From: Thermodesulfobacteriota bacterium
Lineage (GTDB): Bacteria > Desulfobacterota > Desulfobacteria > Desulfobacterales > SURF-7
Reading direction: 5' to 3'
DNA length: 64,000 bases
Assembly (NCBI GenBank): GCA_049320885.1
Contig: JBMORA010000045.1
Location: forward strand, 18,511 to 82,510
Shown: in pieces, positions 21,001 to 24,000 of the stretch
Layout: the number at the start of each line of letters is the position of its first letter
Numbering within the stretch: the stretch's first letter is position 1
Position numbers: made by a program

Positions 21001-24000
21001 CCGGCTATAGGGCAGAATCACCCCCACCTGGGAGCCCGCGCCGTAGGCGGTCATCCATAGCTGGCGGGTTTCTTCCGGCTTGTTGGCCATGGCCGTGGAA
21101 AGGGCCACGCCGCCCAGCTGCACCAGAACTCCCTGGCTCATGCGCTCATCGCCGTGCCGGGCCACCGCATGGGCGATTTCATGTCCCATCACCACGGCCA
21201 GACCGGTTTCGTCCTTTGCAATGGGCAGGATTCCGGAATATACCACCACTTTCCCGCCGGGCATGCACCAGGCGTTCACTTCCTTGCTTTCCACCAGGTT
21301 GAATTCCCAGGCATATCCCTTCAACAAATGGGACAATTTTTCTTGCGCCATGTAGCGCTCCACCGCGCTCTGAATTTTTTTCCCCACATTCCGGACCATC
21401 TTCACCTGCTTTTCGTCCTTGCTGACCGCATTGGACTTCAGGAACTCGCCGTATTGCTGGTAGCTCATGGACATCATGGTCGAGGCAGGCACCAGATCGA
21501 GCTGCGTCCTTCCGGTCAACGGAACGGTGCTGCAGGCTGCCGCGAGGAACAGCCCCGGAAACAACAAGACCGTACGGAGAAATTTGGTGCTCATGTGCTG
21601 TCAACTCCTTTACCGCTATGATTTCATTTCATGCTGGTTGTCGGCTCACCGCCAGACTCTTATGTATCCAAGACAACGGCATTTGTAAACCCGGACGCTC
21701 CCGAAGGGGCTGAAAAACCGTACGCGCCATCCCGGCGGTTTTTTCAAAAAAAATGCCGCGCGGAGCTTTACTTTTTCGATTTGATCATTGTGGTTCCATC
21801 CGGCGGAAGGTCGCCGGCGGCGGCTTTGTTTTATAAATACCACACGGTATCGATTTAATACACCTGTTTTACACGGGAAGGTGCCTCCTCTATCAAAAAT
21901 CCAGGCCGGAGAACGCTCCGGGACACTGCGCGATGTATGTTTTTCGACCCATCACCTGCCGTCTTTTCGGTTTTTCCGTGACCCGGGATCGAATGGGCCG
22001 GGACAACCTTGCCGCCTGCCGAATCATCCGCCGGACCAGCTCCGCTCTTTTCGAAGCCGCCCGTTCATTTCAATCCGAAGCCCCTTGCTTGTCGGACATG
22101 GGGCTCCGCCTGTACTCCCTGGATCCGAATTCCGGTGACCGGTTGCTGCCCATCAACGAAGCCCTGGAGGCCGCCATCCGCCGCATGGGGCTGTACCTGC
22201 AGATATCCCATGGACGATTGCTGAGCGACCATACCGCAGCGTACGGAGGCAAAAACGGAATTCAAGATAAGAAACGAGGTCGATACAACATATGGTATAT
22301 CTTTACTATTGACACACAATGGAGACCATATTACGGTATCCCATCGGGTGATGTATTCAACAGCCGCGGCATCATCATCGGCCATTCCCCGGGCCGATGC
22401 AGACCGGTTTCAGCCGGAAGGACTCCACCAACCGGAGGCGCCATGCGAATCATAGCGATATCGAATCAAAAAGGCGGATGCGGGAAAACCACCACGGCGG
22501 TGAATCTGTCGGCCTGTCTGGCCCGGAAGGGGAAAAGCGTGCTGTTGATCGATATGGATCCCCAGGCCCATTCCTCCATCGCCCTGAACCTGGATGTAAA
22601 GCAACTTGAAACATCCGTCCGCGATGCCCTGGGGGGACCCGAAACCGGCCGGACCCGGATGGACGAAATCGTCGTTGCCGTCAGCGAGCATCTCCATATC
22701 GCTCCGGCCGATATCACCCTGAGCGCCCTGGAACAACAGCTGGCCATGGTGCCGGGACGGGAAAACCGGCTCAAGGAAGCCATCGCCGGCATGGATCGGG
22801 AATATGAATATGTCATCGTGGATTGCCCGCCCAGCCTGGGCCTGTTGACCTTCAACGCCCTGATCGCCGCCACGGAAATCATCGTGCCCCTGGAAATGAG
22901 CTTGTTTTCCCTGCATGGCGTCAGCCGGTTGCTGGAAATCATCGGACTGGTCCGGGAAAAGACCGGTCATGAGCCGCGGATCCGGATCCTGGCCACCATG
23001 GTTGACGATAGAACCAGAATATCGCGGGAAGTCCTGGCGGATATCGGAAGCCATTTTAAGGAGGCCCTCTTCGCCACCCGCATTCATTTTACCGTCAAAT
23101 TGAAGGAAGCCGCCAGTTTCGGCAAATCCATCGTCGATTACGGCAGGGACAGCCGGGGCCGGAGAGACTACCTGGCCCTGACGGAAGAAGTGATCGCACA
23201 AGATAGCCGGCCGGCATCCTCCCGGTTACGGGAAAAAAGCACCATCATTACCAGACAGTTCACGTTGGATGCCCCCCGGGCGGCCTCGGTGAAAATCGTC
23301 GGCACGTTCAACGACTGGACTCCTTCCGAGAAGTCCGCCATGGAACAACGGTCTGACGGCGTCTGGACAAAAGAACTCTCATTGACGCCGGGCGATTATC
23401 AATACCGGTTTCTGGTGGACGATGTCTGGACGGAAGACCACGCCAATCCCCATGCCGTGGACAACGCCTTCGGGGGAAAAAATTCCTGTATCACCATCCG
23501 CTGAAAAGGAAGGCCATGGAAAACAAACGCCTCGGCAGAGGGCTGGAACAGATTTCCGACCTGTTTTTATCCACCGGGAAAGAACGGCCATCCGCTCTTG
23601 ATGGTGCCATGTTCGCGGATCCCGTCGATGAATCCGGGTCCGCCCCTCCGCCGGACGGGGAGAAGGAATCCGCGCCCCCTGATCCCCATGGTGACGGACT
23701 GGCGGCCGATCTGTGCGAGGTGGAGGAACAGGTGAGTGTCCGGAAGAACATCACCTTCCCGCTCCTGCCCGACGCCCGGGAAAAGATGTGGCGGTTGGTT
23801 TGCCGGTATCTGGAATCCGGTTACGGTATCAAGCGGATCGAGTTGATCAAAAGCAGCAGAAACGGCAAGCCCGGCCATCAAAAGACCACGGAAGAGATCG
23901 TCTGTATCGGCACCGAAGACCCGCCGCCCGTCATGAATTTTTAGAACCGGCCGCAAGGGTCAGCCGCGTCATTTCATCCCCCCAGGCCAGCGCATCCCGG

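What a model noticed while it worked through the whole genome (the two positions that open the first line are those of the whole stretch)
22443..23504. ParA/Soj-type ATPase fused to a glycogen-binding CBM48 domain beside glycogen phosphorylase
g03517 encodes a ParA/Soj-family ATPase (41% identical to B. subtilis Soj) with a C-terminal CBM48/AMPK-beta-type glycogen-binding module, two genes from glycogen phosphorylase g03520. The called start (C45:40443) adds 170 residues without any match; relatives are 353-357 aa and start at MRIIAISNQKGG (C45:40953). The fusion is rare: seen only in 3 other database proteins, while other Desulfobacterales have the ParA part alone. It suggests that glycogen granules are a cargo positioned by a dedicated ParA-type ATPase that binds its cargo directly.
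Evidence so far: pfam.tsv AAA_31 171-344 (2.7e-53), CbiA, ParA, MipZ; AMPK1_CBM 450-522 (1.9e-12), CBM_48 443-495 (1.4e-5). Soj 41.7% over aa 172-422. Neighbourhood. Search with the CBM part: 3 other proteins, 353-357 aa, 56-70% id, all ParA+CBM48. In 40 other order genomes all matches to the 353-aa protein stop near residue 255, 0 of 40 with the CBM part. No paper with ParA-like + glycogen + carbohydrate-binding module.
(Added by a program. Inside this text positions count along the whole contig: contig position 18,511 is position 1 of the stretch shown here. "Call 12" and the like, gene names such as g00115 and contig names such as C1 are that model's own, and its searches are not shown. The text may have been shortened before it was handed on; [...] marks where a part breaks off. 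The agent that wrote the report below was given it as the finding of a first reader that could run no searches.)

Follow-up and report, generated by a model that had tools for sequence, protein, structure and literature searches.

The report
Glycogen-binding ParA ATPase with small partner
A chromosome-partition-type ATPase carries its own glycogen-binding domain and is followed by a small partner gene with a ParB-like activating peptide, which probably ties glycogen stores to the nucleoid, but the function is untested and the family is widespread rather than rare.

Summary
The gene is real. Window 22443-23504 (+) encodes a 353-aa Soj-type ParA ATPase, a flexible linker and an AMPK-beta/CBM48-type domain. 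The 170-aa upstream "extension" is partly the relic of a truncated CxxCxxCC-family gene.

It is a 142-aa partner whose N-terminus has the same LGRGL(D/E) core as this genome's own ParB.

The rarity claim fails:
- 65 of the best 80 metagenome relatives are fused.
- 30 of 400 other genomes of the order carry the fusion.
- 14 of 400 other genomes of the phylum sample carry it.

A preprint of October 2026 already describes "ParA-CBM" systems and proposes an immune role. This scan has also noted the family on other DNA.

My data favour a glycogen role:
- The sugar-binding residues are invariant in 69 proteins, and the CBM does not evolve fast.
- 24 of 96 loci hold an alpha-glucan enzyme gene, of five kinds.
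- 44 of 44 carrier genomes have a GT5 glycogen synthase.

The most likely function is ATP-dependent tethering or distribution of glycogen on the nucleoid (about 45%). Nothing has been tested at the bench.

The parts
21876..22241 (+). Relic of a truncated CxxCxxCC-domain (PF03692) gene. Only the C-terminal ~122 residues are left and its stop is lost, so its frame runs into the ParA gene and produces the mis-called 523-aa ORF (21933-23504).
   Evidence: tblastn of the L009 upstream protein matches its residues 78-199 to window 21876-22241 at 55% identity, E 1.3e-48; the N-terminal 77 residues have no match. BLASTP gives 3e-41. Pfam CxxCxxCC on the L009 protein.
22434..22438 (+). Shine-Dalgarno-like GGAGG, 4 nt before ATG 22443.
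   Evidence: Read directly from the sequence.
22443..23504 (+). ParA-CBM gene, 353 aa (P0001).
   Evidence: Translation, Pfam. AF2 mean pLDDT 90.4 with two domains.
22443..23207 (+). ParA/Soj-type ATPase domain, aa 1-255. Deviant Walker A is KGGCGKT (K10, K15). D37/D39 and D127 are present. R190 aligns with T. thermophilus Soj R182.
   Evidence: PDB hits: 8RAY ParA 5.8e-50, 1WCV Soj 4.6e-43, 6IUB Soj 2.5e-35. Alignment to T. thermophilus Soj. K10, K15, D37, D39 and D127 are kept in 69 of 69 and R190 in 67 of 69.
23208..23246 (+). Flexible linker, aa 256-268.
   Evidence: pLDDT below 50 for residues 259-265 and block means of 63-66. Length and sequence vary among relatives.
23247..23501 (+). 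AMPK-beta/CBM48-type carbohydrate-binding beta-sandwich, aa 269-353. W292, R322, W329, F343 and N347 sit at the positions of AMPK beta1 W100, K126, W133, L146 and N150.
   Evidence: Pfam AMPK1_CBM and CBM_48. Alignment to 1Z0N at 7.7e-6. W292 and W329 are kept in 69 of 69 and R/K322 in 64 of 69. W100G and K126Q abolish glycogen binding and W133L weakens it (PMC6274970, passages). L146 and N150 are recalled, not seen in a call.
23506..23513 (+). AAGGAAGG ribosome-binding site of the partner gene. The gap between the ParA-CBM stop and the partner ATG is 11 nt.
   Evidence: Sequence. In the 9 focal-clade loci whose gap the script printed (window included), it is 7-16 nt in 7, 84 nt in L010 and -11 nt in L011.
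23516..23944 (+). Partner gene, 142 aa (P0003), no Pfam family.
   Evidence: Translation. Pfam none. Homologues at 38-57% identity. Found downstream of ParA-CBM in 13 loci (cluster C5) and in 19 of 30 genome loci by HMM.
23516..23572 (+). N-terminal peptide MENKRLGRGLEQISDLFLS, the putative ParA-activating and ParA-binding peptide.
   Evidence: The first 10 residues are invariant in 5 partners. The LGRGL(D/E) core is the same as in this genome's ParB (L002 564-1469). It resembles the H. pylori ParB N10 peptide, whose L7 and R9 are conserved and whose R9 is required for binding (PMC11229316, passages). The motif occurs on three unrelated C-terminal bodies.
23573..23725 (+). Acidic, proline-rich linker of the partner, variable in length and predicted disordered.
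   Evidence: Alignments A4 and A6. pLDDT 40-55.
23726..23941 (+). Conserved C-terminal domain of the partner (one helix plus a long beta-hairpin). Role unknown.
   Evidence: AF2 pLDDT 73-89 for residues ~71-140, with H87-100, E107-118 and E121-132. Conserved columns. No structural relative: best Z 2.4.
23931..25196 (-). HDOD-domain protein, convergent with the partner gene. Conserved at this place in the 3 closest loci only.
   Evidence: Pfam HDOD 3.1e-17. Same in L009 and L010. Cluster C18.
25247..27964 (-). Alpha-glucan (glycogen/maltodextrin) phosphorylase. The true start is probably later than the listed TTG, since relatives are 825-844 aa.
   Evidence: Pfam Phosphorylase, 1093 bits. Same in L009 and L010.

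Best explanation
The locus is a two-gene module, ParA-CBM plus a small partner, that couples glycogen (alpha-glucan) particles to the nucleoid.

Inferred cycle:
1. With ATP the Soj-type domain forms the usual sandwich dimer and binds non-specific DNA.
2. The dimer then displays two CBM48-type modules on flexible linkers. Glycogen is therefore bound bivalently only in the ATP state and is held on, and spread over, the chromosome.
3. The partner's N-terminal LGRGL peptide, the same motif as in ParB, triggers ATP hydrolysis. This releases the ATPase from DNA and resets the cycle.
4. The net effect would be distribution and inheritance of the glycogen store.

The unusual point is that the cargo-binding domain sits on the ATPase and not on the activator.

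Shown: the domain architecture, intact catalytic and sugar-binding residues, the conserved gene pair, and the genomic linkage to alpha-glucan enzymes.

Inferred: dimerisation, DNA binding, glycogen binding, ATPase stimulation, and any positioning.
For: - ParA domain: best solved relatives are ParA 8RAY (5.8e-50) and Soj 1WCV (4.6e-43). The deviant Walker A KGGCGKT fits the KGGXXK[S/T] pattern tabulated in PMC9178275 (passage). K10, K15, D37, D39 and D127 are kept in 69 of 69 fused proteins and R190 in 67 of 69. R190 aligns with T. thermophilus Soj R182.
- CBM: Pfam score over the cut-off. It aligns with the AMPK beta1 CBM 1Z0N. W292 and W329 are kept in 69 of 69, R/K322 in 64 of 69 and N/D347 in 68 of 69. 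The AMPK equivalents W100 and K126 are required for glycogen binding (PMC6274970, passages).
- Divergence: mean pairwise identity is 43.2% for the CBM against 48.5% for ParA, r = 0.81. The CBM is therefore under ordinary purifying selection.
- Fold: AF2 gives two confident domains joined by a low-confidence linker.
- Partner: the first 10 residues are invariant. The LGRGL(D/E) core equals that of the genome's own ParB. The motif L..[IV]S[HD].F[LI]S occurs in the downstream gene of 29 of 69 loci. It sits on three unrelated bodies, and hhalign matches only the first 22-24 residues (E 4.3e-5 and 1.2e-7).
- Complex prediction, ParA domain x2 + ATP/Mg + partner residues 1-40: weak support. The score is 0.39 and the best of 3 controls is 0.00. 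The mark was reached by 116 of 157 solved complexes and 2 of 215 mismatched pairs. At 0.60 or under it was reached by only 18 of those 157 and by both mismatches that passed. The runs agree in at least 68% of contacts and the partner's pLDDT is at least 45. ParA-ParB peptide complexes are solved, so this may be memory.
- Glycogen linkage: 24 of 96 distinct fused loci hold an alpha-glucan enzyme gene in the flanks. These are phosphorylase 3, GT5 synthase 2, GH57 17, GlgC 1 and GH15 1. Of 10 complete CBM-less relatives, none does (Pfam). In L011 and L021 the synthase follows the partner directly.
- Capacity to make glycogen: 44 of 44 carrier genomes have a GT5 synthase domain against 26 of 36 non-carriers (kin are not independent). 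This genome has two.
- Defence libraries: PADLOC gives nothing for the partner and only a 22-bit P-loop match for ParA-CBM.
Against: - 72 of 96 loci show no alpha-glucan gene nearby. In the order's genomes only 5 of 31 carriers do.
- The distribution is patchy: 30 of 400 other genomes of the order and 14 of 400 of the phylum sample. Most glycogen-making relatives do without the system (26 of 36 non-carriers have GT5).
- In known ParA systems the activator, not the ATPase, sits on the cargo. Nothing shows that the partner meets glycogen, and its C-terminal domain has no known fold (best Z 2.4).
- DNA binding is only inferred. K219, which aligns with T. thermophilus Soj R211, is K/R in only 55 of 69. 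I could not map the four H. pylori Soj lysines.
- Partner bodies that are a P-loop-less ParA or, by my reading of the sequences and by the preprint's description, nuclease-like are what the preprint reads as marks of conflict systems. The REase-like protein of L024 has weak PADLOC candidate hits (29.8 bits).
- A few loci adjoin restriction-modification, AbiEii or RhuM genes (L036, L028, L130).
- From my own knowledge, bacterial glycogen particles are small and numerous, so the need for active partition is not obvious.
Confidence: 0.45

Rival explanations
1. Immune or conflict system, the published reading. The CBM senses a carbohydrate signal of infection (glycosylated virion parts, cell-wall or capsule fragments, or loss of polysaccharide). 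ParA then multimerises as the effector that contains the invader.
For: Proposed for 'ParA-CBM' (clade ConB5) in bioRxiv 10.64898/2026.10.19.760177 (passages). The distribution is sporadic. Some variants have catalytically dead ParA-like and nuclease-like partners. The L024 nuclease-like protein has weak PADLOC PDC-S11/S18 hits. Restriction-modification, AbiEii or RhuM genes lie next to a few loci.
Against: The stated basis, rapid divergence of the CBM, is not seen in my 69 proteins. CBM identity is 43% against 48.5% for the ATPase domain, and the ligand-binding Trp residues are invariant. Conserved operon linkage is to GH57, glycogen synthase, phosphorylase, GlgC and GH15, which the passages I read do not mention ('phosphorylase' occurs 0 times). 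No PADLOC family matches ParA-CBM or the partner. The three closest loci share stable synteny with housekeeping genes. The preprint's figures and supplements were not visible to me.
Confidence: 0.15
2. Glycogen-status sensor. Binding to glycogen sequesters or releases a Soj-like regulator. Carbon-reserve level is thereby coupled to a nucleoid-linked process such as replication initiation, division-site choice or transcription, by analogy with AMPK's glycogen sensing.
For: The architecture is the same as for the main reading. The ParA domain is of the Soj type. An HDOD signalling protein is conserved next to the pair in the three closest loci. The partner's bodies vary while the peptide is constant.
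Against: No target is identifiable. HDOD linkage is limited to 3 close relatives (cluster C18). The regulatory roles of Soj and MipZ are recalled knowledge and were not tested here.
Confidence: 0.15
3. Granule scaffold or enzyme organiser without a role for DNA. ParA-CBM polymerises or clusters on alpha-glucan and organises synthesis or degradation enzymes, or granule size, possibly at the membrane in the operon type with membrane proteins.
For: There is a tight operon with GH57 in the second operon type. An upstream single-pass membrane protein (24 loci) and a small membrane protein (14 loci) flank ParA-CBM there. The synthase follows directly in L011 and L021.
Against: The window's own clade lacks these membrane genes. 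The conserved Arg at the Soj DNA-binding position (R190, 67 of 69) would be unexplained. No enzyme-binding motif was found.
Confidence: 0.1
4. The CBM binds a glucan other than storage glycogen, for example maltodextrins or a capsular or periplasm-derived alpha-glucan. In that case the cargo is not the glycogen granule.
For: CBM48/AMPK-type modules bind several alpha-glucans (family knowledge). An outer-membrane Alginate_exp-like porin gene lies in 11 loci of the second operon type.
Against: ParA-CBM has no signal peptide or membrane segment in the AF2 model, so it is cytoplasmic. The linked enzymes are those of intracellular glycogen metabolism.
Confidence: 0.08

Closest known systems
'ParA-CBM' system, clade ConB5, in bioRxiv 10.64898/2026.10.19.760177 (posted 2026-10-22; passages read)
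   Same: The core is the same: a ParA domain fused to a C-terminal AMPK1_CBM, scattered over several phyla. Its two described extensions match what I found in other loci. They are an upstream single-pass membrane protein with a second beta-sandwich, and a second inactive ParA plus an inactive nuclease-fold protein.
   Different: The window's clade has a third, small partner type (142 aa: peptide, disordered linker, small alpha/beta domain), which the passages do not describe. The passages mention neither the shared ParB-like N-terminal peptide nor the linkage to glycogen enzymes. The proposed function is immunity. My data do not show the fast-evolving CBM on which that proposal rests.
Chromosomal ParABS (Soj/ParA with Spo0J/ParB); solved examples 8RAY, 1WCV/2BEK, 6IUB/8JMJ
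   Same: Soj-type ATPase domain with signature lysine. The partner N-terminus has the LGRGL core found in this genome's ParB and resembles the H. pylori ParB N10 peptide.
   Different: The partner has no ParB, HTH or CTPase domain (Pfam none), and no parS site is involved. The ATPase carries a carbohydrate-binding domain. In the tree the family is separate from this genome's own Soj (branch support 85 SH-aLRT, quick tree).
McdA/McdB carboxysome positioning and other ParA-adaptor cargo systems
   Same: A ParA-type ATPase plus a small, partly disordered partner, dedicated to a non-DNA cytoplasmic cargo. This is what it would work like.
   Different: In those systems the adaptor binds the cargo, whereas here the ATPase does. 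McdA has SGGQGKT without the signature lysine (table in PMC9178275), whereas this protein has KGGCGKT. McdA structures match only weakly (6NON 7.1e-12, residues 1-170).
AMPK beta-subunit carbohydrate-binding module (1Z0N)
   Same: Best solved relative of the C-terminal domain (7.7e-6). The Trp/Lys residues needed for glycogen binding are conserved.
   Different: It is bacterial and is fused to a ParA ATPase rather than to a kinase scaffold. K126 is replaced by Arg in the window's protein (R in 38, K in 26, Q in 5 of 69).

Membership tests
ParA/Soj-type deviant Walker A ATPases (ParA/MinD family) | Deviant Walker A KGGXXK[S/T] with signature lysine | tested here: met
   KGGCGKT at residues 10-16. 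K10 and K15 are kept in 69 of 69. The pattern is taken from the table in PMC9178275.
ParA/Soj-type deviant Walker A ATPases (ParA/MinD family) | Sequence and fold likeness to solved ParA/Soj proteins over the whole ATPase domain | tested here: met
   8RAY 5.8e-50 over residues 2-254 and 1WCV 4.6e-43 over 2-256. AF2 pLDDT is mostly above 86 over residues 1-255.
ParA/Soj-type deviant Walker A ATPases (ParA/MinD family) | [quoted passage not shown] | tested here: inconclusive
   R190 aligns with T. thermophilus Soj R182 and K219 with R211. R190 is kept in 67 of 69 and K/R219 in 55 of 69. The assignment of these positions to DNA binding is recalled (B. subtilis Soj R189). The H. pylori Soj lysines K199, K227, K230 and K247 could not be mapped.
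ParABS partition system | Partner is a ParB (HTH/CTPase domains, binds parS) | tested here: not met
   The partner has no Pfam family. It is 142 aa, with only the N-terminal peptide ParB-like. It is therefore not a ParABS system.
ParABS partition system | Partner N-terminal peptide with a conserved Leu/Arg that engages and stimulates ParA | tested here: inconclusive
   The sequence motif is present and invariant. H. pylori ParB L7 and R9 are conserved and R9 is required for binding. The complex prediction gives only weak support: 0.39 against a best control of 0.00. Stimulation cannot be tested here.
CBM48 / AMPK-beta glycogen-binding module | Profile match over the curated cut-off | tested here: met
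   AMPK1_CBM 47 bits (cut-off 26.8) and CBM_48 25.4 bits (cut-off 22.4).
CBM48 / AMPK-beta glycogen-binding module | Conserved aromatic and basic sugar-binding residues (AMPK beta1 W100, K126, W133) | tested here: met
   W292, R322 and W329 align with them. They are kept in 69 of 69, 64 of 69 (R/K) and 69 of 69. The mutational evidence is in PMC6274970.
CBM48 / AMPK-beta glycogen-binding module | Binds glycogen or alpha-glucan | not testable with these tools
   Needs a pull-down or ITC with purified protein.
ParA-CBM system (ConB5) of the 2026 preprint | ParA domain with a C-terminal AMPK1_CBM | tested here: met
   Description.
ParA-CBM system (ConB5) of the 2026 preprint | Rapidly diverging CBM, the stated basis for an immune role | tested here: not met
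   Mean pairwise identity is 43.2% for the CBM against 48.5% for ParA, r = 0.81, and the ligand residues are invariant (69 proteins, mostly from one metagenome scan).
ParA-CBM system (ConB5) of the 2026 preprint | One of the two described extensions (upstream membrane CBM protein, or second dead ParA plus dead nuclease) | tested here: not met
   The window has neither. Its partner is the small C5 type. The extensions occur in other loci.
Known anti-phage defence systems (PADLOC-DB 2.0) | Match to a defence-system protein model | tested here: inconclusive
   Only a P-loop-level match (22.9 bits) for ParA-CBM and none for the partner or the HDOD protein. The library dates from 2023.
McdA (carboxysome positioning ATPase) | Walker A without the signature lysine (SGGQGKT) and close sequence likeness | tested here: not met
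   This protein has KGGCGKT. The McdA motif is from PMC9178275. McdA structures match only residues 1-170 at 7e-12.

The most novel reading that the evidence does not exclude
This would be the first positioning system for a polysaccharide store, built the other way round from every known ParA system. The ATPase itself carries the cargo-binding module. ATP-driven dimerisation would then switch on DNA binding and bivalent glycogen binding at the same time. A portable ParB-like peptide, mounted on at least three unrelated partner bodies, would switch both off. The nucleoid would serve as the matrix on which carbon reserves are spread and inherited, in many uncultured lineages of several phyla.
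Probability: 0.35. Interest if true: 0.8.

Novelty: new variant of a known kind. Interest (0 to 1): 0.6.

Why it matters
ParA-type ATPases are known to position chromosomes, plasmids, carboxysomes, chemoreceptor arrays and division sites. My searches found no paper reporting one for a storage polysaccharide. The only paper that treats this architecture reads it as immunity.

If the glycogen reading holds, it adds a new class of cargo and a new wiring, with the cargo-binder on the motor. It would also make the question of how bacteria apportion carbon reserves at division directly testable with a two-gene module.

If the immune reading holds, the conserved glycogen-type binding site and the glycogen-gene linkage found here need another explanation. 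Either way, the shared N-terminal peptide marks out the partner proteins of the whole family.

Tried and rejected
- Exhaustive profile-free search with the CBM part. It gave 9077 hits, and the best 150 were all multi-CBM or other CBM proteins ranked by summed score. This was useless for counting fusions.
- Word-based search.
- Promoter and terminator scan of 21500-25400. Nothing exceeded the shuffled expectation, so no promoter is claimed for the AT-rich stretch at about 22270-22340.
- Mapping the four H. pylori Soj DNA-binding lysines. The PDB tool prints only the five best alignments and H. pylori Soj ranked below them, even with a sub-query.
- Fold search of the partner model against 48,161 chains. 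The best Z was 2.4, so there is no usable relative. The model is only confident for residues ~71-140.
- hhalign of the small partner against the nuclease-like and pseudo-ParA partners. Only the N-terminal peptide aligns, so a common origin of the bodies is not supported.
- Paper searches: 'ParA' + 'glycogen granule' + 'carbohydrate-binding module' (swamped by words beginning 'para'), and 'MinD family' + 'CBM48' (0 papers).
- I considered that the long 523-aa ORF is the true protein. I rejected this because relatives start at MRII, an SD precedes ATG 22443, and the extension is a relic of another gene.
In this phylum 44 of 44 carriers have a GT5 synthase, so the objection does not apply here.
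- The careful maximum-likelihood tree did not finish in 300 s. Only the quick tree is reported.
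Full report
**1. What is in the window**

The ORF list shows a 523-aa frame at 21933-23504. The gene proper starts at ATG 22443:
- GGAGG lies at 22434-22438.
- The product begins MRIIAISNQKGG.
- All relatives start there.

Pfam finds AAA_31 (1-174, 4.6e-53) and other ParA/MinD-type models. It also finds AMPK1_CBM (280-352, 3e-12, 47 bits against a cut-off of 26.8) and CBM_48 (1.9e-5).

AlphaFold2 with a 69-row alignment gives mean pLDDT 90.4. 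The model has a ParA fold over residues 1-255, a low-confidence linker over 256-268 and a beta-sandwich over 269-353.

The upstream 170 residues have no Pfam family but are not meaningless. Residues 1-103 are 55% identical (E 3e-41) to the C-terminal half of a CxxCxxCC-domain protein encoded upstream of the orthologue in L009. tblastn finds only residues 78-199 of that protein in the window, at 21876-22241. The called start therefore comes from a truncated neighbour gene that lost its stop.

**2. The ATPase half**

The best solved relatives are a ParA (8RAY, 5.8e-50), T. thermophilus Soj (1WCV, 4.6e-43) and H. pylori Soj (6IUB, 2.5e-35). MinD and McdA score far lower.

The Walker A is KGGCGKT, which is the deviant pattern with the signature lysine (table in PMC9178275). 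In 69 fused proteins K10, K15, D37, D39 and D127 are invariant.

R190 aligns with T. thermophilus Soj R182 and K219 with R211. R190 is kept in 67 of 69 and K/R219 in 55 of 69. That these positions bind DNA is my recollection (B. subtilis Soj R189). The H. pylori lysines K199, K227, K230 and K247 could not be mapped.

This genome has 13 ParA-like matches. The chromosomal Soj-like one is 40% identical.

**3. The sugar-binding half**

The best solved relative is the AMPK beta1 CBM (1Z0N, 7.7e-6). In that alignment W292, R322, W329, F343 and N347 fall on W100, K126, W133, L146 and N150 (the last two are named from memory).

W100G and K126Q abolish glycogen binding and W133L weakens it (PMC6274970, passages).

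| Position | Kept in the 69 fused proteins |
|---|---|
| W292 | 69 of 69 |
| W329 | 69 of 69 |
| Y321 | 69 of 69 |
| R/K322 | 64 of 69 |
| N/D347 | 68 of 69 |

Mean pairwise identity is 43.2% for the CBM and 48.5% for the ParA domain, with r = 0.81.

**4.

Eleven bases after the stop, behind AAGGAAGG, lies a 142-aa ORF at 23516-23944 with no Pfam family. Homologues are 38-57% identical.

The protein has three parts:
- an N-terminus whose first 10 residues are invariant (MENKRLGRGL);
- an acidic, proline-rich stretch of variable length, predicted disordered;
- a conserved ~75-aa C-terminal domain (one helix plus a long hairpin, pLDDT 73-89).

This genome's own ParB (L002 564-1469, minus strand) carries ...KKVALGRGLDALF... 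near its N-terminus, so the LGRGL(D/E) core is identical. The H. pylori ParB N10 peptide MAKNKVLGRG binds ParA. Its L7 and R9 are conserved among ParBs, and R9A abolishes binding (PMC11229316, passages).

The motif L..[IV]S[HD].F[LI]S occurs at the N-terminus of the downstream gene in 29 of 69 loci. It is attached to three different bodies:
- the small domain of the window's clade (13 loci);
- a P-loop-less ParA-like body (hhalign to ParA-CBM, probability 93%);
- a body that looks like a restriction-endonuclease fold.

Between these partner types only the first 22-24 residues align (E 4.3e-5 and 1.2e-7). A portable peptide of this kind is what a ParA-contact motif should look like.

A complex prediction used two ParA domains, ATP/Mg and partner residues 1-40. 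It gave weak support: score 0.39 against a best control of 0.00. The mark was reached by 116 of 157 solved complexes and 2 of 215 mismatched pairs. At 0.60 or under it was reached by only 18 of the 157 and by both passing mismatches. The runs agree in at least 68% of contacts, and the partner's pLDDT is at least 45. Similar complexes are solved, so this may be memory.

**5. How common the fusion is**

Wider scans give a different picture.

Of the best 80 loci, 65 carry ParA and CBM in one ORF. Of the other 15, five are cut by a contig end.
- Order sample, 401 genomes including this one: 30 of the 400 others have a match that reaches into the CBM, in several families. One further genome has ParA only at this threshold.
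- Phylum sample: 14 of 400 others.

In a quick tree of the ParA domains (90 rows: 69 fused, 15 not fused, 6 paralogues of this genome) the family is set apart from this genome's other ParAs (SH-aLRT 85). The window sits in a clade of 15 fused rows (support 100). The careful search did not finish.

**6. Neighbourhoods**

The window, L009 and L010 share one gene order: M48 peptidase, ParA-CBM, partner, HDOD protein, alpha-glucan phosphorylase. In L011 and L021 a GT5 glycogen synthase follows the partner directly.

I clustered ORFs of at least 90 aa within 5 kb of the 69 fused genes. This shows a second operon type in 24 loci:
- an Alginate_exp-like porin;
- GH57;
- a ~190-aa single-pass membrane protein;
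- ParA-CBM;
- a small membrane protein;
- a lysine-rich small protein.

I then searched all ORFs of at least 90 aa of all loci with eight seed enzymes (phmmer, E up to 1e-8). Of 96 distinct fused loci, 24 hold an alpha-glucan enzyme gene: phosphorylase 3, GT5 2, GH57 17, GlgC 1 and GH15 1. Of 10 complete CBM-less relatives, none does. The cut locus L033 has GH57.

Pfam itself was run only on subsets:
- 114 ORFs of L012-L032;
- 36 cluster representatives and other selected ORFs;
- 90 ORFs of at least 180 aa of L034-L091 outside the recurrent clusters;
- 107 ORFs of at least 270 aa of the genome loci.

Other glycogen genes may therefore have been missed, and metagenome and genome loci may overlap. 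My rough expectation for a random gene is 1-2% (own estimate, not computed). In the order's genomes only 5 of 31 carriers show such a neighbour.

A GT5 synthase domain is present in 44 of 44 carrier genomes and in 26 of 36 non-carriers taken from the tools' listings (kin are not independent). This genome has two GT5 genes. It has only one other AMPK1_CBM protein, a ~96-130-aa stand-alone one.

**7. What is in print**

A search for ParA-like + glycogen + positioning + ATPase found bioRxiv 10.64898/2026.10.19.760177, posted 2026-10-22. I read passages, not the whole text.

[quoted passage not shown] It describes two extensions, and these correspond to my second operon type and to the pseudo-ParA/nuclease partners. 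From 'rapid divergence of the CBM' it proposes an immune role.

In that text 'phosphorylase' occurs 0 times and 'glycogen' once.

Earlier notes of this scan describe the same family on other genomes. They are AI notes. I had found the preprint and the peptide before reading them.

**8. Weighing the readings**

*For a glycogen role:*
- an intact and conserved glycogen-type binding site;
- a CBM that diverges no faster than the ATPase domain;
- operon linkage to five kinds of alpha-glucan enzymes in separate lineages;
- GT5 in all carriers;
- stable housekeeping synteny in the nearest relatives;
- nothing in PADLOC beyond a P-loop match.

*For a conflict role:*
- a patchy distribution;
- dead-enzyme partners;
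- weak PADLOC candidate hits for one nuclease-like partner;
- a few neighbouring restriction-modification, AbiEii or RhuM genes.

*Against positioning in the strict sense:*
- the cargo-binder is on the ATPase;
- nothing places the partner on glycogen;
- DNA binding is inferred.

I therefore commit to ATP-dependent tethering or distribution of glycogen on the nucleoid, reset by the partner peptide, at about 45%. Immunity, glycogen sensing and scaffolding are the rivals.

**9. Verdict**

The window adds a small-partner variant of a family that a preprint has already named.

Noticed in passing
window 21876-22241 (+): Relic of a CxxCxxCC-domain gene. Only the C-terminal ~122 residues remain and the stop is lost, so it reads in frame into the ParA-CBM gene and inflates the called protein to 523 aa.
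   Followed up: yes
G000:C64:100892-101131 (-) = L007 1495-1887 (-): The genome's only other AMPK1_CBM protein is a stand-alone ~96-130-aa CBM (Pfam 3.9e-15), 45% identical to the ParA-CBM module. A 406-aa ORF, which I did not scan, lies on the same strand about 270 bp downstream (L007 3-1220).
   Followed up: partly
L037 6001-6996, L054 5992-6993, L067 527-1516, L089 446-1417; also G283:C6:72583-73362 and G191:C19:71470-72246: The closest CBM-less relatives (45-49% identical over the ParA domain) have 40-90-aa C-terminal extensions with no Pfam family, possibly other cargo-binding tails. In G191 such a gene lies about 7.6 kb from a GT5 synthase gene.
   Followed up: partly
L028 7117-7485, L029 3850-4278, L044 7111-7512 and 16 further loci (cluster C2): In the GH57-linked operon type there is a small protein with an extremely lysine-rich N-terminal half and a conserved C-terminal domain. 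It has no Pfam family and could be a DNA-binding or ParA-stimulating partner of that subtype.
   Followed up: no
L028 5415-5978, L029 1765-2331 and 22 further loci (cluster C1): A ~190-aa protein directly upstream of ParA-CBM has a conserved N-terminal motif (DIYEHLAKIYLDAS), one membrane helix and a C-terminal domain. It has no Pfam family. [quoted passage not shown]
   Followed up: partly
L121 6629-12043, L122 2160-7574, L123 538-6009, L125 1338-6785, L127 10433-15733: In one family of the order a very large ORF (1766-1823 aa) lies upstream of ParA-CBM. Only the L121 copy was scanned with Pfam (ABC_tran and UvrA_inter domains).
   Followed up: no
window 23931-25196 (-): The HDOD protein has an N-terminal ~200 residues without any Pfam family. 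It is conserved next to the pair in only the three closest loci.
   Followed up: no
G326:C20:4158-5228, G326:C26:34753-35823 and G326:C27:24577-25446: One genome of the order holds two full and one partial copy of the fused gene at 55-57% identity to the window's. This could be a duplication, strain mixture or assembly redundancy (contamination 2%).
   Followed up: no
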